DNA of 64,000 nucleotides from Escherichia phage BAU.Micro_ELP-22: the sequence record OR699282.2, one strand, 5' to 3'. The notes under the pieces are model-generated. The model was not told where the DNA came from. It ran no database searches and saw nothing but the letters and a program-made list of their open reading frames with translations. The translations under genes were made by a program, and so were the position numbers. Below, piece after piece: positions 25,333 to 64,000 of this stretch (position 1 is its first letter; each line of letters opens with the position of its first letter).

Positions 25333-25555
25333 GTTAAAAGAACGACTAATTAAATCCAGAAAACTTACAAATCAACTTCCAAACGACACAAACAAGTCAC
25401 ATGCCGAAAGGAGTGCAGAAGTTTTATACATTCAACTCATGTACTTTCTTGGCACTGACAGACAAGAGTATTACATTGAAAGTATGCTTCGATATCTTAA
25501 ATTCTCTATAAAGGAAAAGATACATGCTCAAGAATTTAAAAATCCTAACAGTTAA
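25304..25555 (+). CDS. F1 paralog (83 aa; start uncertain)
   Basis: LGTDRQEYYI core; shares HAERSAEVL with previous gene. Confidence 0.6.
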   Translation: MQMKYLTDDELKERLIKSRKLTNQLPNDTNKSHAERSAEVLYIQLMYFLGTDRQEYYIESMLRYLKFSIKEKIHAQEFKNPNS

Positions 25556-25766
25556 TGAATATCATACGATTGTAATGAAAACTAATAGTGCAATTTCTAA
25601 AAAATCAAACCCCAAGTACATACTGGAACACACATTTGAAGAACGTCAATTAGCTTTAGTTGAAGCAAAACTTCTTGCACTCCTAGGAACAAACTATCAA
25701 GAAGAATACATCAGAAAACTAATATACCTTTTAACTAAACATATAAGAAAAAGAAAAAATGCATGA
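25524..25766 (+). CDS. F1 paralog (80 aa)
   Basis: LGTNYQEEYI core. Confidence 0.6.
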   Translation: MLKNLKILTVNEYHTIVMKTNSAISKKSNPKYILEHTFEERQLALVEAKLLALLGTNYQEEYIRKLIYLLTKHIRKRKNA

Positions 25767-25993
25767 AACACTTGACAGATGATGAACATGGGCTTATAGT
25801 AATGGATGTAATCAACATCGAATACAAAAAGTTGATACGCTACCGTTGTTATGAAGATAAGCAACTCGTTCTAGCAGAACAGAAGTTGTTTCGACTCTTA
25901 AACACAAACTTCCAAGCACAATACGAAGAATCGTATATGTACCTTTTGGCGAGGAAAGCAAAAAGAGATTATGAAAATTTTAAGCAAAGGTGA
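25763..25993 (+). CDS. F1 paralog (76 aa)
   Basis: ATGA overlap; LNTNFQAQY core. Confidence 0.65.
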   Translation: MKHLTDDEHGLIVMDVINIEYKKLIRYRCYEDKQLVLAEQKLFRLLNTNFQAQYEESYMYLLARKAKRDYENFKQR

Positions 25994-26186
25994 TTCAGTA
26001 ATATTACTTATAGAGAGTTCAAGTAAATTCTTAAACATAACACTGTCTGATATAGATGAAGATGACAAAGAAGTACTGAGAGCAGATTTAAGAGTACTGT
26101 TACATATCGGAACAAACCTACAAGAAGAATATGTAGAGTGCTACATCAATGAACTTAAAGAATTAGTACTGAGAACATGCAAATGA
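25971..26186 (+). CDS. F1 paralog (71 aa)
   Basis: IGTNLQEEYV core. Confidence 0.6.
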   Translation: MKILSKGDSVILLIESSSKFLNITLSDIDEDDKEVLRADLRVLLHIGTNLQEEYVECYINELKELVLRTCK

Positions 26187-26419
26187 AAATCCTTTCACCA
26201 AGTGAATACCACGAACTATTAAGTAGTTTAATTCTAAAATTGTATATAGCAAAGACCACAGATTTACCTGATGAAGAAAAAAATATTCTAATGAGTGAAA
26301 TCTATGTTAATTCTACCCTAGGGACTAACTATCAAGAATGTAATATTAATGATTACATCAAAGAACTAAAAAGGTTTATCCAATGCAAATGCGAATCATT
26401 ACCGAAACAGAATACCTAA
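26177..26419 (+). CDS. F1 paralog (80 aa)
   Basis: LGTNYQECNI core; close paralog of next gene. Confidence 0.65.
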   Translation: MQMKILSPSEYHELLSSLILKLYIAKTTDLPDEEKNILMSEIYVNSTLGTNYQECNINDYIKELKRFIQCKCESLPKQNT

Positions 26420-26625
26420 CAATCATAAATGGACTGTTTTTGAAGTTATTTGCCATTAACACATCAAAACTACCAGATACTGATAAAATTATTAAGTTAA
26501 ATGAAATCTATGTTCAAGCTACACTGGGAACTAACTATCAAGAAGCCAATGTGTATAATTACATTAATACACTCAAAAGGGTAATAAAATTAAAATGCAC
26601 AAACAGCCAATACACAAACCACTAG
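26383..26625 (+). CDS. F1 paralog (80 aa)
   Basis: LGTNYQEANV core. Confidence 0.65.
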   Translation: MQMRIITETEYLTIINGLFLKLFAINTSKLPDTDKIIKLNEIYVQATLGTNYQEANVYNYINTLKRVIKLKCTNSQYTNH

Positions 26626-26825
26626 GAACAGCAGAATACATTGAACTCATGGCATTACACTTCTCATCCTTTCAGAAACTTAGGCGAGAATCAAAGAATG
26701 ATTTAGAATATACCATCAGAGGTTCCGATTTAAGAATGCTTCTCACCCTAGACACAGATTCCCAAGAGCGATTTGTCAATGAGCATATTAGAGCACTTTT
26801 AATGGAAATTCAAAGTAAACTATGA
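26595..26825 (+). CDS. F1 paralog (76 aa)
   Basis: LDTDSQERFV core. Confidence 0.6.
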   Translation: MHKQPIHKPLGTAEYIELMALHFSSFQKLRRESKNDLEYTIRGSDLRMLLTLDTDSQERFVNEHIRALLMEIQSKL

Positions 26826-27037
26826 AGATAATATCAAACCAAGAGTACTTGGCACTATTCAGGAAGAATAATCACAAATATATGGCACTTGATTCAAGAA
26901 CTGATATAAGTGAACTTGAAAAAAATCTTTTGCGTTCAGATATGATAGTACTGACACTCTTAGGAACACAGCATCAAGAGAGAACTGTTAATTCACACAT
27001 AGGGATTCTTATGCAGATAGTACAGGAAAAGATATGA
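26822..27037 (+). CDS. F1 paralog (71 aa)
   Basis: ATGA overlap; LGTQHQERTV core. Confidence 0.65.
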   Translation: MKIISNQEYLALFRKNNHKYMALDSRTDISELEKNLLRSDMIVLTLLGTQHQERTVNSHIGILMQIVQEKI

Positions 27038-27255
27038 GAATCATAACACAACAAGATATTCTTAAGTTCACAAGGGTTCATGCATCTGAATTTGATGCTA
27101 TATTATCAAAAAGTTACAACAACCCTTATACACAAGATGTACATTACAGTGAATTATGGATGTATATACTTTTAGGTACAAATAAGCAAGAGCAAGCCGT
27201 ACAGAAGTATTTGACAGCTTTACGTGATGCTACTGCTAATGGAGTACATGTTTAA
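27034..27255 (+). CDS. F1 paralog (73 aa)
   Basis: ATGA overlap; LGTNKQEQAV core. Confidence 0.65.
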   Translation: MRIITQQDILKFTRVHASEFDAILSKSYNNPYTQDVHYSELWMYILLGTNKQEQAVQKYLTALRDATANGVHV

Positions 27256-27256
27256 T

Positions 27257-27499
27257 ATGAAAGTACTGACAGAACTAGAAATGTATCATAGATTTAATAA
27301 GTACTATCATTTACTTAAGCCTATACAGAGGATTAAATGTCCATTTGAAGAGAAACAGGTTTTAATCTATGAGCACAAGTTCTTTGTATCATTAGGTACA
27401 GATCAACAAGAGTACTATTTGACGTTGTACTTGATTACATTAATAGATTTAATTCACTATAAAACCAAACAAGCTAATAAAGAGAAATATGAAAACTAA
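27257..27499 (+). CDS. F1 paralog (80 aa)
   Basis: Track ORF 27224 trimmed to ATG 27257; LGTDQQEYYL core. Confidence 0.6.
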   Translation: MKVLTELEMYHRFNKYYHLLKPIQRIKCPFEEKQVLIYEHKFFVSLGTDQQEYYLTLYLITLIDLIHYKTKQANKEKYEN

Positions 27500-27833
27500 T
27501 ATACAACTCAAGGTATATAAATCATTTGAACATACATATATCAAAAGTAGTCTATGTAGAGATGTAATGGATTACAAGGGTAAGCCATTCACAATTACCT
27601 ATGATTCTTATGTTAGTGATTTATATATATCATTTGTTAATTACGAAAATAAAATATACAAGCACGTTGATATTAAAGATTTAAGTACTTTATCACCAGA
27701 GGAATACTTTCAGGAATCATTAGTATGGGATTTAGAGTTTCCTATGCCATTAGTACATAAGATGATAGTACTAATGAAAGAATCTAAACAGGAGCCTAAT
27801 GGTGATTATGAAGAACACACAGTTGAGTATTAA
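27489..27833 (+). CDS. large tandem family F2 paralog (114 aa)
   Basis: PEEYFQESLVWD core followed by short helical C-terminus. Confidence 0.6.
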   Translation: MKTNIQLKVYKSFEHTYIKSSLCRDVMDYKGKPFTITYDSYVSDLYISFVNYENKIYKHVDIKDLSTLSPEEYFQESLVWDLEFPMPLVHKMIVLMKESKQEPNGDYEEHTVEY

Positions 27834-28203
27834 AAGTACTGATAATATTAAGAGTTATACAAGCTCAAGTACTGTGACAATCGAAGTGAATTCTCTTAAT
27901 GCTGGTAATACAGTAGATAAGTTCTTTATTGCTCAAGGGTACAGGAAAGATATTCATCAATATTGTTCAGTATATGGGGAGTACAATAGTACTGAAGATA
28001 TAATTTATTGGTCAACACATCAAGATTATATAACTAAAATTGGCGTTCCAGATGTTAGTACTTTATCTGAAGAAGAATACTTTCAGTACAGCTTAATATG
28101 TGATGTACCTATACCTTTAGGGTTAATCAAGGGTATACAGGAAGAGGTTCATAAGCTTAAATCCATGAGTAAAGGTACTTTCATTAGAACAGTGCAATAC
28201 TAG
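27799..28203 (+). CDS. F2 paralog (134 aa; start uncertain)
   Basis: EEEYFQYSLICD core. Confidence 0.6.
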   Translation: MVIMKNTQLSIKSTDNIKSYTSSSTVTIEVNSLNAGNTVDKFFIAQGYRKDIHQYCSVYGEYNSTEDIIYWSTHQDYITKIGVPDVSTLSEEEYFQYSLICDVPIPLGLIKGIQEEVHKLKSMSKGTFIRTVQY

Positions 28204-28204
28204 C

Positions 28205-28233
28205 TTGACAGTACTTTTCATTACTGATATAGT
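28205..28233 (+). promoter_or_regulatory. sigma70-like promoter inside array
   Basis: TTGACA 28205-28210, 17-bp spacer with AGTACT, TATAGT 28228-28233. Confidence 0.55.
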
Positions 28234-28262
28234 ACACTAACGTTAATCATAGGGTAAAAATT

Positions 28263-28508
28263 ATGTTAAATTTTTTAAATTTTCTTATCGTCTTGTGTAT
28301 TGTTCTTGGGATTGCACCATTTGTATTGTATTTCATGGATTCAGATGAAATGCAAAAGATGAATTGCACAAGGACAGGACAGAGTAGAGTAGAGACGATT
28401 CTTATGCCTGTTACGGTTATTGTTAATAATATGCCCATTACCAACATGGTCCCTACCCTAACGACAACGTACCAGTACTCTTGTGCTGACGGAGAGAGGT
28501 GGAGATGA
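28263..28508 (+). CDS. small membrane protein (81 aa), not a family member
   Basis: N-terminal hydrophobic helix FLNFLIVLCIVLGIAPFVLYF; own promoter; SD AGGG. Confidence 0.6.
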   Translation: MLNFLNFLIVLCIVLGIAPFVLYFMDSDEMQKMNCTRTGQSRVETILMPVTVIVNNMPITNMVPTLTTTYQYSCADGERWR

Positions 28509-28816
28509 AATTTAATATAGCAAAAACATCGAGTATATGTATTTTTGGTTATGCAGAAGAGTTAGGTGATATTGACATTCTTTTGTACAAAAAGGATGGT
28601 GTTATGCATTTCAAGTACCAGGATGAAGAGGCAGACAATTATCTTTTACCTAATTTAGTACAAATGCAGGAAGAGGAATTATTCCAGTACAGCTTAGTAT
28701 ACGACATTGATATTTGCACGATGCCAGTACTAATTAGTATTCAAAAAGTGATGCTCGATATGTATGATAAGCTAATACAAGGTATGTCAGGGAGGATCAT
28801 TGAAATTGACATATAA
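28505..28816 (+). CDS. F2 paralog (103 aa)
   Basis: Track ORF 28499 (GTG) trimmed to ATG 28505; EEELFQYSLVYD core. Confidence 0.6.
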   Translation: MKFNIAKTSSICIFGYAEELGDIDILLYKKDGVMHFKYQDEEADNYLLPNLVQMQEEELFQYSLVYDIDICTMPVLISIQKVMLDMYDKLIQGMSGRIIEIDI

Positions 28817-28838
28817 GAATATACCTAATGCATATGAA

Positions 28839-29012
28839 ATGAAGTACAGGGAGTTTATTAAAAATGTACACACCGATCCTTTTAATATCAAAATATCAGA
28901 GTTTGATGTATTATTTTATCTAGGGTCAATAGCACAGGATCAATGCGTTGATAAGCTCATATGGTCCTTGAAAATGGAGATACAATGCAGACCCAAATAT
29001 ATAAAAAGGTAG
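28839..29012 (+). CDS. F1-type paralog embedded in F2 array (57 aa)
   Basis: Track ORF 28800 (TTG) trimmed to ATG 28839; FYLGSIAQDQCV core. Confidence 0.55.
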   Translation: MKYREFIKNVHTDPFNIKISEFDVLFYLGSIAQDQCVDKLIWSLKMEIQCRPKYIKR

Positions 29013-29248
29013 ATTCTTTATTGTACGCTTCAAAGTACAGGGATTTTTGTTTACGAGGGGGAGAGGAAGATTTCTCTCTGAGATTATCTGAATTTAATAT
29101 GTTATTTTATCTTGGTACAAAAGATCAAGAAGATACAGTACAGAAATTTATCAAGCACCTTGAACAAAAAATTAATATGCAAATTTTGATGCTTAAGTTA
29201 CAGAATGAGATAAATGAATATGAATCCAGAAATAGTTCAGGATCTTAA
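28961..29248 (+). CDS. F1-type paralog embedded in F2 array (95 aa; alt ATG 28985)
   Basis: FYLGTKDQEDTV core. Confidence 0.55.
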   Translation: MVLENGDTMQTQIYKKVDSLLYASKYRDFCLRGGEEDFSLRLSEFNMLFYLGTKDQEDTVQKFIKHLEQKINMQILMLKLQNEINEYESRNSSGS

Positions 29249-41492: not shown

Positions 41493-42025
41493 GAAAAATT
41501 AACATTAATGATTATGATGCATTACAAGATTTATCAAAAAAGATTCGCACTATCGTACCAGTACTGAAGAAATGCAGTACTGGTTTAATCGATCCTAGTA
41601 CTGTTGTTAATGAGAAGTACAATTTTCATTATGTATTACAGGGTACTGGGGCATTCCAGAAGTGTGAGGTGCGTGAGACACACGTAATTGATACATCATT
41701 GTTTTCTATTGGTGCACCTGTGTCGAATAATACTATTTTCCTAGACAACGCTGGAAATATTCAACAATTAACATTTAAGAAAAGGAAAAAGAACAATAAC
41801 ATTGGTGTGTATGCGATGAAGTGGGGTCAACCTGATTTGAAGCGTGAAATTCACATCCCTAAGTACAATTACAATGCATTTGACGAACAGTGTTTTCAAC
41901 TATCGTGTACTGACCCTGACTATGCTATTATTCAGTTCTATATGGAATTGCAGATAGCATTTAACAGTAATTTGTATATTAACTTATTGGCGATGAACAT
42001 CGATGAAGTATTCAAAAACATTTAA
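41489..42025 (+). CDS. F2 paralog, divergent (178 aa)
   Basis: ATGA overlap; DEQCFQLSCTD core variant. Confidence 0.55.
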   Translation: MRKININDYDALQDLSKKIRTIVPVLKKCSTGLIDPSTVVNEKYNFHYVLQGTGAFQKCEVRETHVIDTSLFSIGAPVSNNTIFLDNAGNIQQLTFKKRKKNNNIGVYAMKWGQPDLKREIHIPKYNYNAFDEQCFQLSCTDPDYAIIQFYMELQIAFNSNLYINLLAMNIDEVFKNI

Positions 42026-42221
42026 TCGAATTGAATACATGAGAACTGTGAGTGCAGTGTGGGACATATGGTTCACTACTAAACCAAAAATGGATTACCA
42101 TGACTTTAAGCTCTTGTTCTTCGTTGGCTCTAACAAACAGGATGTTGCAATGAAGGGTTATATTCAGCACTTACAGGAACTAATCCAGAAGAGAATATAT
42201 GAAAATAATAGACCAAAATGA
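42003..42221 (+). CDS. F1-type paralog embedded in F2 array (72 aa)
   Basis: FFVGSNKQDVAMKGYIQHLQELI core. Confidence 0.55.
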   Translation: MKYSKTFNRIEYMRTVSAVWDIWFTTKPKMDYHDFKLLFFVGSNKQDVAMKGYIQHLQELIQKRIYENNRPK

Positions 42222-42390
42222 CATTGCTAAACTATTCAATATATATTCTACTAGAATGATGCAAACAGACTCATATAGTACTGAATTCAAAGAGTTGAAA
42301 GTCCTGATGTACTTGGGAACCCAATATCAGGAACAAGTTATTTTGGAATATATTAATTCGCTGAAGAAGGATATCCGTTATGTACGATGA
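42199..42390 (+). CDS. F1-type paralog embedded in F2 array (63 aa)
   Basis: MYLGTQYQEQVILEYINSL core. Confidence 0.6.
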   Translation: MKIIDQNDIAKLFNIYSTRMMQTDSYSTEFKELKVLMYLGTQYQEQVILEYINSLKKDIRYVR

Positions 42391-55977: not shown

Positions 55978-56019
55978 TAAAAACGCACATGGAGTGCATT
56001 AGAAGATCAAGGATAGATC

Positions 56020-56493
56020 ATGGAGATTAAAACTGTTGAAAATGGGAAAATTGATGACATTTTAGAGTTGGACGCATTCAAAGTTCATGATATAATGTTT
56101 AATGTGAAGGACATTATTCAATGTCTATTTTTGTGTAGCAAGACAATGCATGATTTTTTTCACAACCCAAATACTAACGTTTTTATACTAACAATCAGTA
56201 CTGAAAACTCGTTTATCATGGGTATGCCTATGAGTACAAATGAACAATATATTGATTGTGTTATTCGTAATAACGATAGTATTACGCCACAATCTGAAGT
56301 ACGTAAAAAGAAAAACACCTACACAATCAAAGATGATAAAATTATGATGTGCTGTAGTAAAGGGTTTATATTAGATAATTTTATCATCAAAGACAGTTAT
56401 CACGACTTTAAAGTGTCTGAAAATCAATCCAATGTAGTTCTTTATGCGAGTGACATAGAAAGTCTAACAGTTAAAGATCCCAGTTTGGAGTAA
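56020..56493 (+). CDS. hypothetical protein (157 aa)
   Basis: ATG 56020, SD-like AAGGA; no family core. Confidence 0.6.
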   Translation: MEIKTVENGKIDDILELDAFKVHDIMFNVKDIIQCLFLCSKTMHDFFHNPNTNVFILTISTENSFIMGMPMSTNEQYIDCVIRNNDSITPQSEVRKKKNTYTIKDDKIMMCCSKGFILDNFIIKDSYHDFKVSENQSNVVLYASDIESLTVKDPSLE

Positions 56494-56495
56494 GT

Positions 56496-56627
56496 ATGGC
56501 TAAGAAAGTAAACAATTTCGTACAGAAACACATGAATGAGTTTAACAAGCCTCAGACACATGTTGATCGTAAGAAAGAAATGAAAAATGGTAAAGTAAAA
56601 CACAAGTCGAGATTTATTCTCGACTAA
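56496..56627 (+). CDS. small basic protein (43 aa), not in ORF track
   Basis: ATG 56496 with SD GGAG at 5 nt; Lys-rich. Confidence 0.45.
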   Translation: MAKKVNNFVQKHMNEFNKPQTHVDRKKEMKNGKVKHKSRFILD

Positions 56628-56656
56628 TTTTTTGTCTAAATTTATGGAGATTTTAT

Positions 56657-57508
56657 ATGTTAGATAGCACTGACTTTCGCAATTTCAAAAAGTATTCAGT
56701 TCTTGAACATATAAACGAATTTCTAAATTCTACTACACCATTTGGCATCAGTGCGTTCGACTCATACGATGGGTATAGAATCTTCTCATGCAATGACTTT
56801 CAAATTTCCGTCAAAAAAGGTTTTACAAAAGAAGTTGCAATTCGTGATGTAGTACTGTATAGCGATTCTTCCATTTCTTACTGTCATGATGCGAACAATT
56901 TTGAATCTCTTTCAACACCTAATTGTTCATACTACAAATCCCATGACACGATGATGTACAAAGAACAACATATCAATGGTGTTTCGTTCTATAAAACGAA
57001 CAGTGATAAGTCATATACATCGAGAGATGATTTTGGAAAGTACACATGTACTATGCACGCGGATAATGAAAAAACAAGCTACACACATTCATTCGAGTCC
57101 AAATTCAAAGAGAGTGACTTTTCAAATATCACTATTCAAGAACAAGTTACAGAAGAAGGTGTTGTATATCGTAGTACTGCATTCTTTCGCATGAAAGATA
57201 TTGTCACTGGTAGACCAATGATGTACAATATTGACATATATATGAAAGGTGATATATCCGAAGTAGTGATTAGTACTGGTTATCGTGAAAAATATACAGT
57301 TACGATGGAATCACCAGATGCATCACTAGTTCACCTCTTTAACAATTTATACACATTCCAATTCGAACTTAGTTTCGAACCCAATGAATATCAAATATTC
57401 GATGTATTAAAAAGTAATATTATTAATAAGTTAGAATATTACTACAAGTTAGGTGGGAAAATGAGCATAGTTAATACTATGTTACATAACATAAAAGAAA
57501 CATTATAA
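56657..57508 (+). CDS. hypothetical protein (283 aa)
   Basis: ATG 56657, SD GGAG; Ser/Thr/Tyr-rich. Confidence 0.65.
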   Translation: MLDSTDFRNFKKYSVLEHINEFLNSTTPFGISAFDSYDGYRIFSCNDFQISVKKGFTKEVAIRDVVLYSDSSISYCHDANNFESLSTPNCSYYKSHDTMMYKEQHINGVSFYKTNSDKSYTSRDDFGKYTCTMHADNEKTSYTHSFESKFKESDFSNITIQEQVTEEGVVYRSTAFFRMKDIVTGRPMMYNIDIYMKGDISEVVISTGYREKYTVTMESPDASLVHLFNNLYTFQFELSFEPNEYQIFDVLKSNIINKLEYYYKLGGKMSIVNTMLHNIKETL

Positions 57509-57523
57509 ATTGGAGGATTTGGG

Positions 57524-57817
57524 ATGGATACTAAATTCAAAGTTATATTTAAAACTAAGCCGTATATTCCGCATACAGCAGAACGTTTTATACCACATGG
57601 TGCAGAGGAAATTATTCACCATGATGGTACAAAGTTATATCTAGTGCCATGTTCATATGAACGTGCAGTAGAAATGTTACTCATGAATTCTAAATTATGT
57701 ACAAACAAGTACATTAGCTACTTATACAATGAACATATTTTAGATTTTAATGATGAAAATATGTTTATTCTAGCAATTGAAGATTTTAATAATTGGTACA
57801 ACATTATTAAAATCTGA
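57524..57817 (+). CDS. hypothetical protein (97 aa)
   Basis: ATG 57524, SD GGAGGA. Confidence 0.65.
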   Translation: MDTKFKVIFKTKPYIPHTAERFIPHGAEEIIHHDGTKLYLVPCSYERAVEMLLMNSKLCTNKYISYLYNEHILDFNDENMFILAIEDFNNWYNIIKI

Positions 57818-57825
57818 TAAAAATA

Positions 57826-57863
57826 TTGTGAACATATTAAATCTTTATGATATAATGTTCACA
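57826..57863 (+). promoter_or_regulatory. Promoter overlapped by 9-bp inverted repeat (candidate operator)
   Basis: TGTGAACAT 57827-57835 and ATGTTCACA 57855-57863 flank/overlap TATAAT 57851-57856. Confidence 0.5.
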
Positions 57864-57887
57864 TCTTTTTTGATAATGGAGATATAG

Positions 57888-58274
57888 ATGAATACAAGTT
57901 CAATCCTAAAAGCAATTGGTGGTGTTTTACTTATTGAAGTGAAAGGTGAACCAAAACTATGCTGTTTGGAAGATATGAAGAATACAAAACACTTCAGTAC
58001 TGGTCAGATTTTTAATGCCATTCGTGTTCTAAATGATAAATCAATCGCTGATTATGGTAAAGTTTGGCCTGTATATCAAAACGCAGAGGGTGATATCAGT
58101 TCTGACTGGAAAACCATCGAAGCAGTTCGACAAAGTTGCGATAGTGACTGGGACTTTATTGTCGAAGTATGTGATCAACTACAAGAAGATGTTCCAGAAA
58201 TTGTCGAACGAAAAGAAGTCCTAGCACGACTTGAAAAATTCCGTCACGGAACACTACAGTATGACACAATCTAA
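57888..58274 (+). CDS. hypothetical protein (128 aa)
   Basis: ATG 57888, SD GGAG. Confidence 0.65.
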   Translation: MNTSSILKAIGGVLLIEVKGEPKLCCLEDMKNTKHFSTGQIFNAIRVLNDKSIADYGKVWPVYQNAEGDISSDWKTIEAVRQSCDSDWDFIVEVCDQLQEDVPEIVERKEVLARLEKFRHGTLQYDTI

Positions 58275-58323
58275 TCTGCTTATTAAAAATATCTAATTAA
58301 CATTATATAAAAGGAATTTAAAA

Positions 58324-58629
58324 ATGGAAGACAATGGAATGAAATTTGATATGTTTGAAGGTGTACCAGAGTTCGATTTCAATAAACTTGAAAATGGTGA
58401 AGAATCAGAACTAGTAAGTGTTACACTAAAATCAGATACCAAAAAGAAATATTCCCCATCAGTTCGTTCACGTTCTCAAGAAGAATATGAAACCTTCATT
58501 GAGAGTATTCATTACGAAACGTTCCATCATGCAGATGGTACTCCGTATGAAGTTCGTGTTACAGTACTGAAGCCTGAAGTAAACCCAATGGAAAATCTAC
58601 GTCCTGTTTACTGCTGGGCAAGCCACTAA
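58324..58629 (+). CDS. hypothetical protein (101 aa)
   Basis: ATG 58324, SD AAGGAA; followed by strong terminator. Confidence 0.65.
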   Translation: MEDNGMKFDMFEGVPEFDFNKLENGEESELVSVTLKSDTKKKYSPSVRSRSQEEYETFIESIHYETFHHADGTPYEVRVTVLKPEVNPMENLRPVYCWASH

Positions 58630-58639
58630 TAAACCAAAG

Positions 58640-58669
58640 GACGGGATATAATATCTCGTCTTTTTTTTT
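58640..58669 (+). terminator. Rho-independent terminator
   Basis: GACGGGATAT..ATATCTCGTC stem then nine T. Confidence 0.8.
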
Positions 58670-58681
58670 GTCTGGAGATAT

Positions 58682-59530
58682 ATGAAACTTTATCTAATCG
58701 TTGACTACAGTAAGGGTTATTATGACTACGCAGAAGAATCTGAAGGGTATTGCTCGTCTACTAATGTCAATGTACGCACCAGTAGTACACATGAGCATGA
58801 ATCTATTACAAACCTAAAAGATTTCATCGCATATCGAGCATTTGAAAAGAATTTCTGTCGTAGTAGATATTCGAAGTTTGAGTACCCGTTAATTGATGTT
58901 CCTGATGAATTGATGTTCCAGTTAATGCTCACTGGAGTACAAGATTATGATTACATCGCGTACAATCACATTACTAAGAAAATTTATATCGGTACGTCAA
59001 CACATGACATTTCTATGTATGCATCATGCCCCGATGATCGAATGAATGATAGAAAATCATACTATAGTGGATCAGTTGGTTCAAATGATTCATTAAATAA
59101 AAATTTATTCTTTGAGTACGAGTTTGATAATCATCGAGGGAAAAAAGACCGAGAAGATTATTGTACTGAAATTGATAGTACCAATGGATATGAAGAAGTG
59201 AAAGAAGCGATAATGCCATATATCCTTGACAAGTACTACAAAGATTTTCAGTACTGTAGTAATTTTCTAATCCGAAATTCTATCATAATCGGTCGTCAAA
59301 GTACTGCATTCTCTAAGTACTACAATGATTCCCCTGTTGCTGAAAATGAAAACTGTAATATTCTCTCAATCCCACGTGAAGATATGGTATTCATGTTCAC
59401 ATCTTTCATTGAAGATGATGAGTTGTATGTAAAAAACAAGCACAGGTTCATGCCAAGTAAGATTGAGGTTATGAGAAGCTTAAGTGCAGATATCTTAACT
59501 AATTTCACTGAAAAAACAGAATACAACTGA
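58682..59530 (+). CDS. hypothetical protein (282 aa)
   Basis: ATG 58682, SD GGAGA. Confidence 0.65.
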   Translation: MKLYLIVDYSKGYYDYAEESEGYCSSTNVNVRTSSTHEHESITNLKDFIAYRAFEKNFCRSRYSKFEYPLIDVPDELMFQLMLTGVQDYDYIAYNHITKKIYIGTSTHDISMYASCPDDRMNDRKSYYSGSVGSNDSLNKNLFFEYEFDNHRGKKDREDYCTEIDSTNGYEEVKEAIMPYILDKYYKDFQYCSNFLIRNSIIIGRQSTAFSKYYNDSPVAENENCNILSIPREDMVFMFTSFIEDDELYVKNKHRFMPSKIEVMRSLSADILTNFTEKTEYN

Positions 59531-59560
59531 GACATACCATAAGTTTATGATATAATGTAA

Positions 59561-59594
59561 GGTGACAGCAGAATATGTTGTCGCCTTTTTTTTT
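59561..59594 (+). terminator. Rho-independent terminator
   Basis: GGTGACAGC-AGAATAT-GTTGTCGCC (G-U tolerant) then nine T. Confidence 0.7.
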
Positions 59595-60132
59595 AATCCT
59601 GAAAGGTTCCATATGGAAATGATTAAAGCCTAATCCACTCGAAAAGTAGAGGGTAGATGAGTAGTCCTTTCAGTACGAACAGCAAATGAAACCCGTTAGA
59701 TGATGGCATAGTTTGAACCACTCACGGCAATGCGGCTGTATAAAGAACTCCAATAGGATAAAGAGAGTTCCTCGATAGACATATAAGGATCGCACCTTAC
59801 CAATTATCTAAGGGAGATTTCATGAGAAATTTGCGGTCGTAATTTATACAAAATAGTTGCGTCCAAAATTCGTGAAATCAAATACAAGTACTGGTCATAT
59901 GGTATTTGTATTATGTGTCGGGATGTTTAAGACCGACGACCGTTGCTACAAGAACCGCGATAGAGAGAAACAGAGCAACCCGCTTTCGTCTCGTAAGAGA
60001 ATTCGTGATATGAACTATGTGAAGGCCACCAGCGTCAAACTTTTTTGTTCTTTCCCCTGCGGGGGGATGAAATATGCTCAAGCAAACCCCGTCAATATTA
60101 ATTAAAAGAAAATAGTACTTGTAGAATTAGAC
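59595..60132. other. Non-coding island, GC-richer than flanks
   Basis: No ORF with RBS; contains hairpin TCCCCTGCGGGGGGA near 60052-60068; no tRNA-like T-loop seen. Confidence 0.45.
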
Positions 60133-60753
60133 ATGCGTAGCATGGTAATTCTACTGATGTTGATGGAATCAACGTCACGTATATTCATTGATGTTTCCAT
60201 AGGAATAATGATGGCATTTATTAGAAAACAAAAAACTTTTACCTATAAGACTTTGGATTTTGTTGATTGTGAAAACCAATTACAAGATGAAGATAACTTT
60301 ACAGGATTTGTTGTTATTAAAGAAAAAGGATGCATTTCGTATATAAAGGAATTACAGAACGGCATTGAAGTTACTTCAGTCAAATTACTTCCTACACAAA
60401 AACCAACAATATTAAAAGCACAGTATGGTAATTATTTCGAGGAAAGATATAGTAATAATTTAATAAGTGTTAAGGCTCATATTATAAAAGGAGAACTAGA
60501 AGGAGAATATAGAAAATACAACCCACAAGGAAAATGTGTTTGGGTTAAATACTTCAATTCAGGAAATGATGTAACATCTGAAATAATTGAGTTTTTAGGT
60601 TTAACATGTACCCCTGAAACTCTTCATGATTACAAATTTAATACTGAAGAAGAGTTTAATCTGATGATGCGTTATGGTTCACATTTTAAATTTTTATATG
60701 AATATAACATTGACAGTAGTACTTTTGATAAGATAGTACAGAACTGTCTCTAA
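60133..60753 (+). CDS. hypothetical protein (206 aa; alternative start ATG 60208 with SD AGGAA)
   Basis: Long ORF; possible MORN-like G..Y..NG repeats (weak). Confidence 0.55.
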   Translation: MRSMVILLMLMESTSRIFIDVSIGIMMAFIRKQKTFTYKTLDFVDCENQLQDEDNFTGFVVIKEKGCISYIKELQNGIEVTSVKLLPTQKPTILKAQYGNYFEERYSNNLISVKAHIIKGELEGEYRKYNPQGKCVWVKYFNSGNDVTSEIIEFLGLTCTPETLHDYKFNTEEEFNLMMRYGSHFKFLYEYNIDSSTFDKIVQNCL

Positions 60754-60769
60754 CAAAAGGAATTATATA

Positions 60770-61291
60770 ATGTCGAAGAAGGATGCTTCGAAAAAACATT
60801 CAGTACATTTTAGTACTGGTAAAGATAACTGGACAACTCCAAAAGATTTCTTTGAAGAGTTAGATGAGTTATGGGGATTTACGCTTGATGCTGCTTGTGT
60901 TGATGAGACTGCATTATGTGAGAATTATTTTACACCAAATGATGATTCTCTTTCACAGGATTGGGGAAAGAATATAGTTTGGTTGAACCCTCCATATAGT
61001 GATTTGAAAACATGGTTATCTAAAGCAGTAGATGCGTATAATAAAGGAGCAACTGTATTAATTCTTGTACCATCAAGAACGGATACTATAGCCTTTCAGG
61101 ATTATGCTGCGAAAGTTTGTGATTGTATTTGTTTTATTAAGGGAAGGTTACGATTTGGTATCCCAGAAGAACCAGAGAAGAAAACAGATTCAGCACCATT
61201 TCCTTCGTGTCTGATAGTACTGGATAAGTACTTAACCACTGCTAAAATCAATTATCTTAAATCTCTTGGATTGGTGATGAAGAATTTATGA
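60770..61291 (+). CDS. dam: DNA N6-adenine methyltransferase, phage Dam type (173 aa)
   Basis: FTLDAAC...VWLNPPYS: target-binding/catalytic NPPY motif and overall layout typical of small phage Dam methylases; SD AAGGAA. Confidence 0.8.
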   Translation: MSKKDASKKHSVHFSTGKDNWTTPKDFFEELDELWGFTLDAACVDETALCENYFTPNDDSLSQDWGKNIVWLNPPYSDLKTWLSKAVDAYNKGATVLILVPSRTDTIAFQDYAAKVCDCICFIKGRLRFGIPEEPEKKTDSAPFPSCLIVLDKYLTTAKINYLKSLGLVMKNL

Positions 61292-61821
61292 AAGAAACAT
61301 GCGTATTAACTTTTGGACGTGTTAATCCCGTACATCGTGGACATGGTTTAGTTTTTGAAAAGGCCAAAACATTACAAGAACAGTACAATGCTGATTTAAA
61401 AATATATCTAAGCACCAGTACTGACAATATAAAAAACCCACTCCCACCTGAACTAAAAATGTATTATACAGAGGGATTTTATCCTTCAGTGCAAGAGAAC
61501 ATCTACACAGAAGACAATCTGTTTGATATAATGAGAGAACTGGATGGAAAGTACTTAGATGTTCTTTTCATATGTGGTTCTGACCGTATTGATTCTTTTC
61601 AAAAAACTCTTGACATGTACAATGGTAAGTTGTATAATTTTTGTAGTATAAAAGTAATTCAAGCAGGTATTGACCGTAATGTAAGTCAATATAGCTCAAC
61701 ACAAATGCGTAACTTCGCAAAAAATGAAGATTTTGATAGTTTTCGTGAGTTTTTACCTGGAAATGACGAGAACTTAAAAATACAATTATTTGAAGACGTT
61801 ATAAAATACATGAGGAAATAA
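61288..61821 (+). CDS. HxGH-motif nucleotidyltransferase (NMNAT/NadD-like adenylyltransferase) (177 aa)
   Basis: ATGA overlap with dam; FGRVNPVHRGH (G-x-F-x-P-x-H-x-G-H) and C-terminal SSTQMR (S-x-T-x-x-R) motifs. Confidence 0.7.
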   Translation: MKETCVLTFGRVNPVHRGHGLVFEKAKTLQEQYNADLKIYLSTSTDNIKNPLPPELKMYYTEGFYPSVQENIYTEDNLFDIMRELDGKYLDVLFICGSDRIDSFQKTLDMYNGKLYNFCSIKVIQAGIDRNVSQYSSTQMRNFAKNEDFDSFREFLPGNDENLKIQLFEDVIKYMRK

Positions 61822-61823
61822 TT

Positions 61824-62117
61824 ATGTCAGTACTGTTCAAAACCAATCCAGTACTTTGGGATCAAAATGAGCAATCAGGATTTCGTTCCATCCATGTTGA
61901 ATACAAAGGTAATACTGTAGTTGCAATTATTGCTAACAAAACTCTAGGAAACTGGACTGCACAGGTTGTTCCTATGGGATATTCTTACACATCTGATGAG
62001 GTTCAATTCCTGGCTGAACTATATCGTCAAGTGCCGTTTATCATTAATGTACTAGAAGGTAATGATACATTATCACATGCAGATGTGATTAATTTTCTTG
62101 GAAACTTGCATGTGTGA
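61824..62117 (+). CDS. hypothetical protein (97 aa)
   Basis: ATG 61824 two nt after upstream stop. Confidence 0.6.
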   Translation: MSVLFKTNPVLWDQNEQSGFRSIHVEYKGNTVVAIIANKTLGNWTAQVVPMGYSYTSDEVQFLAELYRQVPFIINVLEGNDTLSHADVINFLGNLHV

Positions 62118-62397
62118 TGAAATAAATCTTACAGGATATTTTTTACAAGAATCAATGATTAAATTTAGTGATAAATTTTCAGTACTGGATGGTATCGAAA
62201 TGTGGCATGTCAAACCACTGTTCCACACTTTCAGTAAAGAGCACAAAATGTTATTGACTGAAGCGAGTAAATCAAATAACATATGTGAAATCAAAATTGG
62301 TGTAAATGTCTATAAAGGGATGGTTATCTTTTTTGACAATAACAGCAACTACTTTTATATTGTTAAGGAGCATTACGTTGACAAATACAAATACTAA
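62110..62397 (+). CDS. hypothetical protein (95 aa)
   Basis: Track ORF 62098 (TTG) trimmed to ATG 62110; overlaps upstream gene by 8 nt. Confidence 0.55.
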   Translation: MCDEINLTGYFLQESMIKFSDKFSVLDGIEMWHVKPLFHTFSKEHKMLLTEASKSNNICEIKIGVNVYKGMVIFFDNNSNYFYIVKEHYVDKYKY

Positions 62398-62992
62398 TAC
62401 ATACTTCCGTTATCTTCGCTTAGGTCTTTCCCTACGTCCGATCCGTGGAAAGTGCGATTCACTCGCTGACCTTGACTATGCATATGCATTACATCATGAA
62501 GGTGTACAGTATGTATTGGGTGATTATGGTGAATTTGAAGAAACAAATGACAGTACTGGAATTAATGCTGGTGTAGAAAATCTTAACAACATTGCTAACA
62601 GTTCTCGCCATGACATTGTGTTACAGATTCAAAACTTTATTGAGCAGCACACAGGTAAACGTGTTTGGTGCTATGTCGGTACTGATGCACAAATGTCAAT
62701 TTCATTCGGTAACGATGAAGGATATGTTGCACAGCTTATTATGGATTTTGAATCTGAAGAGAAGTTTTTAGAATTCAAAGAAAAGATTATTCAGTCACTT
62801 GTTGATATGGGTATCCCCGAAGATAAAATGCCAGAAGTTCAAAACATTGATGAATTTGTTTTGATTCCATCTGATGAGAAATATGATGCAATGTTTACTG
62901 CCCTTAATATTCCAGGAGTTATTGTGGAGTACTTTGATGATGGTGATGATAGTATCTATATCGATCTAGATGACGATGACGACGATGAATAA
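62378..62992 (+). CDS. acidic hypothetical protein (204 aa), poly-Asp C-terminus, probable TTG start
   Basis: TTG 62378 preceded by SD AAGGAG at 7 nt; C-terminus DDGDDSIYIDLDDDDDDE. Confidence 0.55.
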   Translation: MTNTNTNTYFRYLRLGLSLRPIRGKCDSLADLDYAYALHHEGVQYVLGDYGEFEETNDSTGINAGVENLNNIANSSRHDIVLQIQNFIEQHTGKRVWCYVGTDAQMSISFGNDEGYVAQLIMDFESEEKFLEFKEKIIQSLVDMGIPEDKMPEVQNIDEFVLIPSDEKYDAMFTALNIPGVIVEYFDDGDDSIYIDLDDDDDDE

Positions 62993-62998
62993 TGTACA

Positions 62999-63027
62999 TA
63001 GCCCGACATAAGTTCGGGCTATTTTTG
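62999..63027 (+). terminator. Rho-independent terminator
   Basis: TAGCCCGA-CATAAGT-TCGGGCTA then TTTTTG. Confidence 0.8.
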
Positions 63028-63038
63028 TAAGGGGATAT

Positions 63039-63314
63039 ATGAATTATAAAGTTCTACAATATACATACAGTGTTTTGTTTGATTTACATCACAATGGAAG
63101 ATATCTCAATACAATACGAGAAAACACATTCACTCATACTATCTGGATTAATCACTTAATAATGATACGTGAATATTTTGTTAATAGTGAGATAATCATT
63201 CGTGGTAAAAAACAGAAGATAGAACAAGTTAATAGTTTTGGTGGTAAATTAGTACTATCATTTATAGATAGTAATACTAATGAAAGATATAGTATAGATT
63301 TGGTGGACATATGA
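63039..63314 (+). CDS. tandem family F3 paralog (91 aa)
   Basis: MNYKVLQYTYSVLFDLHHNG; SD GGGGA. Confidence 0.6.
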   Translation: MNYKVLQYTYSVLFDLHHNGRYLNTIRENTFTHTIWINHLIMIREYFVNSEIIIRGKKQKIEQVNSFGGKLVLSFIDSNTNERYSIDLVDI

Positions 63315-63577
63315 ATTATAAAGATTTCCTACTAACATACAAGATTATTCGAGATTTAGCACACGACAATGATAGCCCTAGTCTAGAAGACACATGCACT
63401 GAAATGATTCATACAATTCGTGGTAAGATTAAAAAAAAATTCAGTACTGTTATTATTGGTGATGACCATGCAGAATTTTCTGATATAATCATTAGACGTG
63501 ATGGTAAAGTTGAGGTTCAGTACTACACTGATTTTGGATTTACCAGTATTCCGTTGGAGATATTCCCTTGGGATTAA
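63311..63577 (+). CDS. F3 paralog (88 aa)
   Basis: ATGA overlap; MNYKDFLLTYKIIRDLAHDN. Confidence 0.6.
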   Translation: MNYKDFLLTYKIIRDLAHDNDSPSLEDTCTEMIHTIRGKIKKKFSTVIIGDDHAEFSDIIIRRDGKVEVQYYTDFGFTSIPLEIFPWD

Positions 63578-63879
63578 ATTTAAATGATATACAATTCACT
63601 TATAAGATCCTATATGATTTGTATGATGTATACCTTGTTAGTAACAAAATAGGTTCACATAACCCATACAAAGAACAACCATTTATTGATTTATATATTG
63701 AGTACTTAGATTCAGTAGGTGAATATATAAAAAAGAATTACAGTACTTTTATCGATGGAAATGATAAATTCGATTTCTATGGTGTGCAATCATATAATGG
63801 TATAATCCATGTTCAATTTCAGGAAATAACCGATAGGGGATTTATCGAGATTAAAGTTGTGAAGTTGGTGAATTTATAA
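63568..63879 (+). CDS. F3 paralog (103 aa), no in-frame ATG (TTG start?)
   Basis: LNDIQFTYKILYDLYDV; TTG 63568 with SD GGAGA upstream; may be decaying. Confidence 0.45.
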   Translation: MGLNLNDIQFTYKILYDLYDVYLVSNKIGSHNPYKEQPFIDLYIEYLDSVGEYIKKNYSTFIDGNDKFDFYGVQSYNGIIHVQFQEITDRGFIEIKVVKLVNL

Positions 63880-63889
63880 GAGGTTACAT

Positions 63890-64000
63890 ATGTTATTAAA
63901 TGATATACAATTCACATACAAATTTTTGTATATCCAATACGCTACGGTTGATGCTGGAGAATATCTCTACAGTGAAATCTATCGTTCGGTATGGATAAAG
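63890..64000 (+). CDS. F3 paralog, 5' partial (runs off window)
   Basis: ATG 63890; MLLNDIQFTYKFLY matches previous gene. Confidence 0.55.
   Translation, partial: MLLNDIQFTYKFLYIQYATVDAGEYLYSEIYRSVWIK

What the first reader, a model, noticed from the sequence alone, without database searches (positions are those of the whole stretch)
63039..64000. Start of a third tandem paralog family at the window edge
Four consecutive genes share the N-terminal pattern (M)NYK/LNDIQFTYK...(Y/R)DL and ATGA coupling; one (63568..63879) has no in-frame ATG and would need a TTG start, suggesting turnover. The array continues beyond the window.
Basis: seen in the sequence. Interest (0 to 1): 0.5.

Follow-up and report, generated by a model that had tools for sequence, protein, structure and literature searches.

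The report
Small tandem gene family in jumbo phage
The last kilobase of the window holds the first four genes of a real but ordinary tandem family of small, fast-evolving genes of unknown function. The family is found only in 121Q/RaK2-like jumbo coliphages, and the copy with a TTG start is a conserved working gene, not a decaying one.

Summary
The window is a 121Q/PBECO4-like Asteriusvirus jumbo phage. Positions 63039-64000 are the orthologues of 121Q gp422-gp425.

**The family is real.** Leave-one-group-out profiles recover gp422, gp424, gp425 and gp426 at E 1e-6 to 1e-15. ORF2 (gp423) is the weakest member. AlphaFold models of ORF2 and ORF3 (pLDDT 90 and 87) both show a helical hairpin followed by a four-stranded beta-meander.

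**The array continues past the window.** In 121Q it continues with gp426, and, beyond a conserved zinc-ribbon gene, with gp428, gp429 and probably gp434.

**The TTG start is not a sign of decay.** It is conserved in two diverged clades, where it overlaps the upstream stop as TTGA. It has a GGAG 8 nt upstream. The gene is under purifying selection (dN/dS 0.11-0.27).

**Turnover happens at the level of the array.** There are 1, 3 or 5 copies upstream of the zinc-ribbon gene in different lineages. Alleles are swapped at gene 5' ends.

**Function is unknown.** An exhaustive HMMER search found 22 representatives, nearly all small proteins of this family. Those whose source was checked come from Asteriusvirus phages or a similar metagenomic contig. 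There is no match in Pfam, NCBIfam or PADLOC, and no fold match in PDB or BFVD. The phAPEC6 orthologues are absent from the virion proteome. The proteins are most likely soluble non-enzymatic accessory binders, which is an inference. Tandem duplication is already known in this genome, so interest is modest.

The parts
62998..63022 (+). Terminator-like G+C-rich hairpin followed by a T-run, 16 nt upstream of ORF1. It marks the upstream edge of the array.
   Evidence: Found in the terminator scan. The stem GCCCGA..TCGGGC plus T-run is conserved in ph0011, Ecwhy_1, A4 and JNE01, with different loops. It coincides with a mosaic breakpoint.
63039..63314 (+). ORF1, 91 aa, ATG start with an AAGGGG Shine-Dalgarno sequence. 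Orthologue of 121Q gp422. Family member.
   Evidence: Matches phrog_32291 and cross-hits phrog_21004 at 3.5e-5. Leave-one-out HMM gives 7.5e-14. dN/dS is 0.20-0.28.
63311..63577 (+). ORF2, 88 aa, ATG overlapping the ORF1 stop as ATGA. Orthologue of gp423. The most diverged family member.
   Evidence: Matches phrog_35943 only. blastp to gp424 gives 8e-6. Leave-one-out HMM gives only 15.4 bits for the window copy and 24-26 bits for orthologues. The AF2 model has pLDDT 90.4 and the same H-H-E-E-E-E order as ORF3.
63568..63879 (+). ORF3, 103 aa, TTG start overlapping the ORF2 end by 10 nt, with GGAG at 63553-63556. Orthologue of gp424.
   Evidence: Matches phrog_21004 at 1e-51. The TTG is conserved as cccTTGA in ph0011 and Ecwhy_1. 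dN/dS is 0.11-0.27 against the diverged clades. AF2 gives pLDDT 87.1 and pTM 0.77, with helix 1 spanning residues 5-23.
63890..64000 (+). First 37 codons of ORF4, the orthologue of gp425 (103 aa in 121Q). ATG start with an AAGAGG Shine-Dalgarno sequence. Cut by the window end.
   Evidence: The full-length 121Q orthologue matches phrog_21004 at 5.8e-44.
63580..63605 (+). Direct DNA repeat at the 5' ends of ORF3 and ORF4. The second copy is at 63896-63921. The repeat is 26 nt at 92% identity, with 20 nt exact, and the spacing is 316 nt. It encodes the NDIQFTYK motif.
   Evidence: In 121Q versus Ecwhy_1, the left junction of a 562-nt mismatch-free tract falls in this motif at the start of gp425.
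63033..63086 (+). Direct DNA repeat at the 5' ends of ORF1 and ORF2. The second copy is at 63305-63358. It is 54 nt at 70% identity and covers the Shine-Dalgarno sequence plus ATGAATTATAAAG.
63756..63822 (+). Micro-mosaic patch inside ORF3. It holds 12-13 substitutions relative to 121Q, slurp01 and phAPEC6, while the rest of the array is nearly identical.
   Evidence: The encoded residues (KFDFYGVQ...VQFQE) match the PBECO4 and UE-S1 alleles P0015 and P0007.

Best explanation
**What it is.** Positions 63039-64000 are the upstream end of a tightly packed, same-strand run of small genes of about 90-100 codons. The run arose by tandem duplication and divergence of one ancestral gene. That ancestral gene sat next to a conserved zinc-ribbon gene in RaK2/121Q-like jumbo phages.

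**Shown:**
- All four genes, including the TTG-start copy, are intact genes under purifying selection.
- Translation starts are closely spaced or overlapping: ATGA; TTG 10 nt inside the previous gene (TTGA in relatives); and a 10-nt spacer with a Shine-Dalgarno sequence.
- Each modelled protein is a roughly 10-12 kDa soluble domain with no transmembrane helix. It consists of a two-helix hairpin packed against a four-stranded beta-meander.
- Across the family only T and Y of the N-terminal FTYK motif, one glycine in a beta-turn, and hydrophobic positions are conserved.
- The array changes in three ways. Whole units are gained and lost (1, 3 or 5 copies upstream of the zinc-ribbon gene). Duplicates diverge into new types. 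Alleles are exchanged between phage lineages by homologous recombination, with junctions at gene 5' ends.

**Inferred:**
- The genes are co-transcribed and translationally coupled.
- The proteins are non-enzymatic, non-virion accessory proteins that each bind a different host or phage partner during infection. They would be host-takeover or counter-defence modulators.
- Surface variability between paralogues supplies the different specificities.
For: **Identity and synteny:** the window is 98.8% identical to slurp01, and its genes map to 121Q gp422-425.

**Paralogy:** shown by blastp, PHROG cross-hits, the full-length alignment, leave-one-out HMMs and a converging local iteration that adds gp428, gp429 and gp434.

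**Same fold:** both AF2 models show H-H-E-E-E-E, with pLDDT 87 and 90.

**Genes are functional:** dN/dS is 0.1-0.6 with dS up to 1.5, but dN is 3-30 times higher than in flanking gp421 and gp427.

**TTG start:** it is conserved as TTGA in two clades and preceded by GGAG.

**Copy number and type turnover:**
- Five copies in 121Q, ph0011, Ecwhy_1 and A4, three in JNE01 and one in a metagenomic relative. The metagenomic relative has five copies downstream of the zinc ribbon instead.
- A4 slots 1-3 are all gp422-like, with no gp423 or gp424 orthologue.

**Mosaic exchange:**
- gp425 and gp426 are 99-100% identical between 121Q and Ecwhy_1, while gp422-424 are 59-76% identical.
- A 562-nt mismatch-free tract begins in the conserved 5' motif.
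- A micro-patch lies inside ORF3.

**Restricted distribution:**
- 26 hits among 5.8e9 clusters and 22 representatives among 1.84e9.
- Very diverged copies sit in synteny in RaK2.
- No match in complete E. coli genomes.

**Not virion proteins:** phAPEC6 orthologues gp386c-389c are absent from the 62-protein virion proteome (PMC7247149).

**No enzymatic signature:** there are no conserved polar catalytic residues and no Pfam, NCBIfam or PADLOC family match.

**Neighbourhood:** the region carries a Dam methylase and, downstream, RNA ligase and polynucleotide kinase. The phAPEC6 paper links these to protection against restriction and the Prr system.
Against: - There is no direct evidence of expression, timing or binding partners. 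No transcriptome or infected-cell proteome of an Asteriusvirus was found.
- Absence from a virion proteome is weak evidence for 10-kDa proteins.
- A conserved terminator-like hairpin lies directly upstream with no promoter between it and ORF1. How the array is transcribed is therefore unknown.
- The 'binder' role rests on negative evidence: no catalytic motif and no known fold.
- ORF2's membership is weak by sequence alone. Its AF2 model was built with the family alignment, which leans towards the family fold.
- Some copy-number evidence comes from records of uncertain quality. CMSTMSU is flagged UNVERIFIED, and the SD-series Salmonella phages have many fragmented ORFs.
Confidence: 0.7

Rival explanations
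1. The TTG-start copy (63568-63879) is a decaying or untranslated duplicate, and the array is in the process of losing it.
For: - The ORF has no in-frame ATG.
- Annotators disagree on its start. Ecwhy_1 and PBECO4 use internal starts that give 83-86 aa.
- The SD-2_S15, SD-15_S21 and SD-6_S16 Salmonella phage records carry deletions or frameshifts in this gene.
- Its C-terminal half carries a cluster of substitutions.
Against: - The TTG is conserved in clades with dS of about 1, where it forms a TTGA overlap.
- It has a GGAG at optimal spacing.
- dN/dS is 0.11-0.27.
- The N-terminal 17 codons encode the family's best-conserved motif and helix 1 of a confident fold.
- TTG starts make up about 10% of longest ORFs in the window, and the highly conserved zinc-ribbon gene also uses one.
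- The SD records are broadly fragmented, which suggests assembly errors.
Confidence: 0.05
2. The proteins are virion-associated or assembly factors, for example small decoration, whisker-associated or chaperone proteins, rather than intracellular host-interaction proteins.
For: - These phages have unusually complex virions with many unassigned small proteins, and structural genes are scattered along the genome (Figure 2 legend).
- A head maturation protease gene lies about 17 kb downstream.
- Small proteins are easily missed by MS.
Against: - None of phAPEC6 gp381c-397c is among the 62 virion proteins detected.
- The array is embedded among DNA methylase, cytidylyltransferase, RNA ligase, PNK, phosphatase and DNA ligase genes.
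- Copy number and type vary between closely related phages with the same virion architecture.
Confidence: 0.1
3. The paralogues are interchangeable adaptor or regulatory subunits. They would work with the conserved zinc-ribbon protein (gp427) that sits in the middle of the array, for example as specificity factors for a nucleic-acid-binding regulator.
For: - Family members flank the zinc-ribbon gene on both sides in every lineage examined, including RaK2.
- The zinc-ribbon gene is far more conserved than its neighbours, with dN/dS 0.02-0.06.
Against: - The evidence is purely positional, and no co-variation or interaction was tested.
- The zinc-ribbon protein has no Pfam match, and its PHROG has unknown function.
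- The conserved zinc-ribbon gene may simply act as a recombination anchor.
Confidence: 0.12
4. The similarity is chance or compositional, produced by AT-rich coding of short proteins rich in K, N, I and Y, and there is no real family.
For: - Inside the window alone, ORF1 against ORF2 or ORF3 gives only E 0.03-0.04.
- ORF2 scores 15 bits in the leave-one-out test.
- Invariant columns are few.
Against: - Full-length collinear alignment.
- Leave-one-out E values down to 1e-18.
- No other ORF among about 300 controls from the same genome scores below 3.6e-3.
- PHROG cross-hits.
- The same predicted topology.
Confidence: 0.02

Closest known systems
The two large tandem gene arrays of phage 121Q / phAPEC6. 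Hua et al. [quoted passage not shown]
   Same: - Same genome and same strand.
- Same architecture of head-to-tail small genes with overlapping or abutting start and stop codons.
- Same proposed origin by tandem duplication.
- Both arrays lie in this window, at 21506-29248 and 27489-48616.
   Different: - This family is unrelated to them in sequence. No window ORF outside 63039-64000 scores with the family HMM.
- It is much smaller, with 8 members in 121Q.
- It is much more diverged, at 20-30% identity between copies.
- It is interrupted by unrelated genes (zinc ribbon, a TM protein).
Hyperplastic regions of T4-type phages: a plastic periphery of small early ORFans shuffled in modules. This comparison is from my own knowledge (Comeau et al. 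2007; Arbiol et al. 2010) and was not checked with the tools.
   Same: - Dense runs of small genes of unknown function.
- Faster evolution than core genes.
- Differences between close relatives through gain, loss and allele replacement, with junctions at gene boundaries.
- Proximity to RNA ligase and PNK genes, as in T4.
   Different: - The genes here are paralogues of one another rather than unrelated ORFans.
- There are no promoter-plus-stem-loop cassettes between the genes. They overlap, and the recombination junctions fall in a conserved coding motif and in the conserved zinc-ribbon gene.
- Early expression has not been shown.
PHROG families phrog_21004, phrog_32291 and phrog_35943, all of unknown function.
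   Same: ORF3 and ORF4 belong to phrog_21004, ORF1 to phrog_32291 and ORF2 to phrog_35943, each with full-length matches at E of 6e-44 or lower.
   Different: PHROGs keeps these as three separate families and places gp428, gp429 and gp434 in three further ones. The analysis here joins them into one family.
[not shown]
   Different: - The same score range is filled with unrelated helical hairpins.
- Foldseek finds nothing in the PDB at E below 0.2.
- I treat this as a non-match.

Membership tests
Tandem paralogue array (gene family generated by local duplication) | Members are homologous by statistically significant sequence similarity over most of their length. | tested here: met
   blastp gives 1.6e-7 to 8e-6 for four pairs. 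Leave-one-group-out HMMs give 1e-6 to 1e-18. ORF2 is weak, at 15-26 bits.
Tandem paralogue array (gene family generated by local duplication) | Members are adjacent, on the same strand and of similar size. | tested here: met
   The ORFs at 63039, 63311, 63568 and 63890 are all on the + strand and 88-103 aa long, with a 4-nt overlap, a 10-nt overlap and a 10-nt spacer between successive genes.
Tandem paralogue array (gene family generated by local duplication) | Members share one fold. | tested here: met
   AF2 models of ORF3 (pLDDT 87) and ORF2 (pLDDT 90) both show H-H-E-E-E-E. Caveat: both were predicted with family alignments.
Tandem paralogue array (gene family generated by local duplication) | Copy number or content differs between related genomes, as evidence of duplication and loss. 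| tested here: met
   There are 5, 3 or 1 copies upstream of the zinc-ribbon gene in different lineages. A4 has three gp422-like copies and no gp423 or gp424 type.
Pseudogene / decaying copy (claimed for ORF3) | Loss of a usable start, frame disruption, relaxed selection (dN/dS near 1) and absence of conservation in relatives. | tested here: not met
   The TTG start and GGAG are conserved. The ORF is intact in the Escherichia phage records examined (121Q, slurp01, ph0011, Ecwhy_1). It is disrupted only in CMSTMSU and three SD-series Salmonella phage records, whose assemblies are of doubtful quality. dN/dS is 0.11-0.27.
phrog_21004 | Full-length match to the PHROG profile. | tested here: met
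   ORF3 scores 1e-51 and the full-length orthologue of ORF4 scores 5.8e-44. ORF1 scores only 3.5e-5, and ORF2 has no hit.
Any curated protein family or defence/anti-defence family (Pfam-A, NCBIfam, PADLOC) | Score above the curated cut-off, or a consistent hit across members. | tested here: not met
   No Pfam hit is above the gathering score. No NCBIfam model is matched by more than one member. In PADLOC there is only a 16.8-bit REase_II hit for the ORF2 orthologues.
[not shown]
   [not shown]
Phage early / host-takeover accessory genes | Expression before DNA replication, and an effect on a host target. | not testable with these tools
   No transcriptome or infected-cell proteome of an Asteriusvirus was found. 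The only evidence is absence from the virion proteome and gene context.

The most novel reading that the evidence does not exclude
The family is a self-diversifying panel of small binders with a fold not yet seen in solved structures. RaK2/121Q-like jumbo phages would use it against variable host targets such as defence or surface-independent host factors. The conserved 5' coding motif (AATGATATACAATTCAC and its variants) would have two roles. It encodes the first helix, and it also serves as a built-in homology site. That site would let whole gene cassettes be swapped between co-infecting phages, and let units be duplicated or deleted by unequal crossing-over.
Probability: 0.15. Interest if true: 0.6.

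Novelty: new member of a known kind. Interest (0 to 1): 0.3.

Why it matters
This result adds one clearly delimited, structurally coherent gene family to the large 'dark matter' of jumbo phage genomes. About 83% of phAPEC6 genes have no known function. It merges at least six separate PHROG families of unknown function into one family.

It also gives a small, well-resolved example of how such genomes grow and diversify. The processes seen are tandem duplication, divergence into new types, unit gain and loss, and very recent allele exchange between lineages, with junctions at gene 5' ends.

For annotators it settles the start of gp424-type genes. The correct start is the upstream TTG, not the internal starts used in the PBECO4 and Ecwhy_1 records. 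It likewise supports the 94-aa form of gp426 over the 78-aa form annotated in 121Q.

It does not reveal a new mechanism or function.

Tried and rejected
- **Known families.** Pfam, NCBIfam and PADLOC scans gave nothing consistent. The 16.8-bit PADLOC REase_II hit of ORF2 was not followed.
- **Profile against PDB sequences.** The best E was 0.47.
- **Link to the downstream small proteins.** I tried to join the family to gp433, gp437, gp441-456 of 121Q, which show a similar helix / Y-x-G / strand look. hhalign gave a probability of 8%, so they are not linked. Local HMM scores for them are 0.01-0.9.
- **Degenerate-pattern search of IMG/VR.** The alignment had no stretch conserved enough to search with. 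I used the zinc-ribbon gene as an anchor instead, which found RaK2 and one metagenomic contig. The latter has no detectable family members.
- **Expression data.** I found no Asteriusvirus transcriptome.
- **T4-type late promoter motif.** TATAAATA is absent from the + strand of the window and of the 25-kb 121Q stretch. This is uninformative, because the late promoter of these phages is unknown.
- **RNA genes.** Rfam found nothing in 56000-64000, and the tRNA scan found nothing in the whole window.
- **Complete E. coli genomes.** No match.
- **Low-quality records.** The SD-series Salmonella phage records and CMSTMSU show truncated or fused copies. I did not rely on them, because those records are fragmented throughout.
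Full report
**Source and map.** The last 3 kb of the window is 96.9-98.8% identical over its full length to about 18 Escherichia and Salmonella jumbo phage records of the genus Asteriusvirus (slurp01, 121Q, phAPEC6, PBECO4 and others). A further dozen or so more distant records match at about 81-93% identity. Window 63039-64000 corresponds to 121Q genes gp422, gp423, gp424 and the first third of gp425. GenBank annotates all of them as hypothetical proteins.

**Observation.** Four + strand ORFs are present:
- 63039-63314, 91 aa, ATG start.
- 63311-63577, 88 aa, ATG start.
- 63568-63879, 103 aa, TTG start. There is no ATG anywhere in this frame.
- An ORF from ATG 63890 to the window end.

The junctions between them differ. 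ORF1/ORF2 is an ATGA overlap. ORF2/ORF3 is a 10-nt overlap. ORF3/ORF4 is a 10-nt spacer. Each start has a Shine-Dalgarno-like purine run, and for ORF3 this is GGAG 8 nt upstream. The N-terminal motif occurs nowhere else in the six-frame translation of the window. The motif was defined after the fact, so this is only descriptive.

**Is the family real?** Yes, on four lines of evidence.
- *Pairwise blastp.* Among the 121Q proteins it gives gp424-gp425 1.6e-7, gp425-gp426 5.7e-7, gp422-gp426 4.8e-6 and gp423-gp424 8e-6, over nearly full length at 23-31% identity.
- *PHROGs.* gp424 and gp425 fall in one family (phrog_21004). gp422 and gp426 cross-hit that family at 3.5e-5 and 1.6e-4.
- *Leave-one-group-out profiles.* They recover gp422, gp424, gp425, gp426, the three JNE01 copies and a metagenomic copy at E 1e-6 to 1e-18 for a nominal database of a million sequences. 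gp423 (window ORF2) is the outlier at 15-26 bits.
- *Controls.* None of about 300 control ORFs from the same genomes scores better than 3.6e-3.

AlphaFold2 models of ORF3 (pLDDT 87, pTM 0.77) and ORF2 (pLDDT 90, pTM 0.76) have the same order of elements. Two long helices form a hairpin, followed by four beta-strands. Both models used family alignments, so for ORF2 this shows compatibility with the fold rather than independent proof.

**Does the array continue?** Yes.
- In 121Q the next gene, gp426, is a member. Its 94-aa form carries the family N-terminal motif. The 78-aa GenBank annotation truncates that motif.
- A conserved 66-aa zinc-ribbon gene (gp427) follows.
- gp428 and gp429 come next and are diverged members.
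- Beyond a small membrane protein gene and three other genes lies gp434, a probable member.
- A wider set of small proteins further downstream (gp433, gp437, gp441-456) looks superficially similar but could not be linked. hhalign gives a probability of 8%.
- The block gp422-gp433 lies between two terminator-like hairpins.

**The TTG start.** In ph0011 and Ecwhy_1, the orthologous junction reads cccTTGAga. These two lineages are 56-76% identical to the window lineage in gp422-gp424 protein, and dS reaches about 1 or more for gp422 and gp424. At this junction TTG is the start of gp424 and TGA is the stop of gp423, which is a start/stop overlap of the ATGA type. In the window lineage TGA has become TGG, so gp423 runs two codons further.

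Several points support this TTG as the real start:
- GGAG is conserved upstream.
- The 17 codons between this TTG and the next possible start encode the family's best-conserved motif. They form most of helix 1, which is modelled with pLDDT 85-89.
- gp424 has dN/dS 0.11-0.27 against the diverged clades.
- TTG is the first start of 16 of 156 longest non-overlapping ORFs in the window. It also starts the highly conserved zinc-ribbon gene.

The TTG start is therefore ancestral and functional. It is not a mark of decay.

**Turnover at the array level.**
- *Copy number.* Between the gp421-like gene and the zinc-ribbon gene there are five copies in 121Q, ph0011, Ecwhy_1 and A4. There are three in JNE01 and one (also with a TTG start) in a 101-kb metagenomic contig. 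That contig instead has five copies downstream of the zinc ribbon.
- *Paralogue types.* In A4 the first three slots are all gp422-like, and there is no gp423 or gp424 type.
- *Allele mosaicism.* gp425 and gp426 are 99-100% identical between 121Q and Ecwhy_1, although gp422-424 are only 59-76% identical. ph0011 has diverged gp425 and gp426 alleles. gp428 exists as two alleles that share only their first eight codons or so.
- *A recent exchange.* The 121Q/Ecwhy_1 identical tract is 562 nt without a mismatch. It starts at codon 4 of gp425, inside the AATGATATACAATTCAC motif shared by all lineages, and ends in the conserved zinc-ribbon gene.
- *Within the window.* The same motif forms a 20-nt exact direct repeat at the 5' ends of ORF3 and ORF4, 316 nt apart. 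ORF1 and ORF2 share a 54-nt repeat at 70% identity. A 67-nt patch in ORF3 (63756-63822) carries 12-13 substitutions relative to 121Q, slurp01 and phAPEC6, and it matches PBECO4-type alleles.
- *Rate of evolution.* The copies evolve faster than their neighbours. dN is 0.14-0.33 against 0.01-0.10 for gp421 and gp427 at comparable dS, yet dN/dS stays below 1.

**Distribution.**
- A word-seeded search of 5.8 billion clusters found 26 proteins.
- An exhaustive HMMER profile search of 1.84 billion representatives found 22. Twenty are small proteins that align with the family; of the 15 new ones retrieved, two are fused or truncated gp423-derived fragments. The other two hits are marginal matches (E 2.5e-4 and 6.2e-4) to proteins of 648 and 6952 aa and look spurious. 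The source was traced for three of the diverged representatives. Two (P0034, P0040) match phage A4 and one (P0035) lies on the metagenomic contig.
- With the zinc-ribbon gene as anchor, Klebsiella phage RaK2 shows the same synteny. Its flanking small genes are very diverged members, with HMM E-values of 7.5e-7, 8e-4 and 4e-3.
- Complete E. coli genomes have no match.

**What the proteins might do.**
- *Protein families.* No curated family matches.
- *Conservation.* Only T and Y of the FTYK motif and one glycine are nearly invariant. The rest of the conservation is hydrophobic. That pattern argues against an enzyme.
- *Physical properties.* The proteins have no predicted membrane segment and are mostly acidic, with pI 4.8-6 (8.0 for ORF1).
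- *Virion proteome.* The phAPEC6 orthologues gp386c-389c, and every gene from gp381c to gp397c, are absent from the 62-protein virion proteome (PMC7247149).
- *Neighbourhood.* Upstream genes are a Dam methylase and a cytidylyltransferase. Downstream are RNA ligase, polynucleotide kinase, a phosphatase and DNA ligase. All other neighbours are PHROGs of unknown function.

My best reading, which is an inference, is that these are soluble, non-virion accessory proteins acting as a diversified set of binding modules during infection. Timing, targets and even expression remain untested, because no Asteriusvirus transcriptome was found.

**Comparison with what is known.** Tandem duplication is already a recognised route of genome growth in 121Q and phAPEC6 (PMC5646251, PMC7247149). 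The two large arrays those papers refer to lie in this same window. The present family is a third, smaller and older example, unrelated in sequence to the other two. Its mode of change resembles the plastic regions of T4-type phages, a comparison that rests on my own knowledge and was not tested. I found no description of this family as such. PHROGs splits it into at least six families of unknown function.

**Verdict.**
- The feature is a real but ordinary member of a known kind: a tandemly duplicated ORFan family in a jumbo phage.
- The parts of modest interest are the absence of any structural analogue and the clean picture of cassette exchange at a conserved 5' motif.

Noticed in passing
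window 21506-29248 (plus 42003-42390) and 27489-48616: Two very large tandem paralogue arrays. One has about 30 copies of roughly 65-95-aa genes. The other has about 29 copies of roughly 105-190-aa genes. They were found by all-against-all blastp of + strand ORFs. [quoted passage not shown]
   Followed up: partly
window 62998-63022: A terminator-like hairpin plus T-run lies only 16 nt before ORF1. It is conserved in four diverged Asteriusvirus lineages with different loop sequences. There is no room for a promoter between it and the array, so how the array is transcribed is unclear.
   Followed up: partly
window 61610-61638: A perfect 12/12 sigma-70 consensus (TTGACA-17 nt-TATAAT) lies inside the cytidylyltransferase gene. 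An 11/12 site lies at 62333-62361, near the gp420/gp421 boundary.
   Followed up: no
window 59531-60132: About 600 nt have no convincing gene, between the gp415 and gp416 orthologues. The stretch begins with a strong terminator-like hairpin at 59559-59587. It has no Rfam or tRNA match.
   Followed up: partly
L001 7115-7676 (121Q) versus L004 (Ecwhy_1): A 562-nt tract with zero mismatches sits between two phages that are otherwise about 80% identical in this region. This indicates very recent exchange of the gp425-gp426 cassette.
   Followed up: yes
L001 7850-8113 (gp428) and its orthologues in L003, L004 and L013: There are two unrelated-looking gp428 alleles: 121Q/A4 against Ecwhy_1/ph0011. 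They share only the first eight codons or so (MTKAELIV). Nucleotide identity beyond that is 35-50%.
   Followed up: partly
L001 7657-7857 (gp427); L015 5001-5201 (RaK2): A 66-aa zinc-ribbon protein with CxxC...CxxC sits in the middle of the array. It is far more conserved than its neighbours: dN/dS 0.02-0.06, and 71% identity to RaK2. It uses a TTG start in most lineages. It has no Pfam match.
   Followed up: partly
window 63311-63574 (ORF2): A weak PADLOC hit to a Type II restriction enzyme model (PDLC03543): 16.8 bits, E 8e-4, residues 12-83 against profile positions 157-227. Only the gp423 orthologues hit it. It is probably a chance match.
   Followed up: no
L009, L010, L011 (Salmonella phages SD-2_S15, SD-15_S21, SD-6_S16) and L005 (CMSTMSU): These records carry deletions, frameshifts or a gp423::gp424 fusion in the array. 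They are fragmented into many tiny ORFs throughout, so this may be assembly error rather than biology.
   Followed up: partly
L001 7380-7664 (121Q gp426), L004 3061-3312 (Ecwhy1_349), PBECO4 gp141 (P0015): Probable start-codon misannotations in public records. 121Q gp426 is annotated as 78 aa, and the Ecwhy_1 and PBECO4 gp424 orthologues as 83-86 aa. All of these cut off the conserved N-terminal helix of the family.
   Followed up: yes
window 62378-62992 (gp421 orthologue): A conserved 204-aa protein of unknown function (phrog_15575) ends in a run of acidic residues (DDDDDDE). It is conserved as far as RaK2 and is under strong purifying selection.
   Followed up: no
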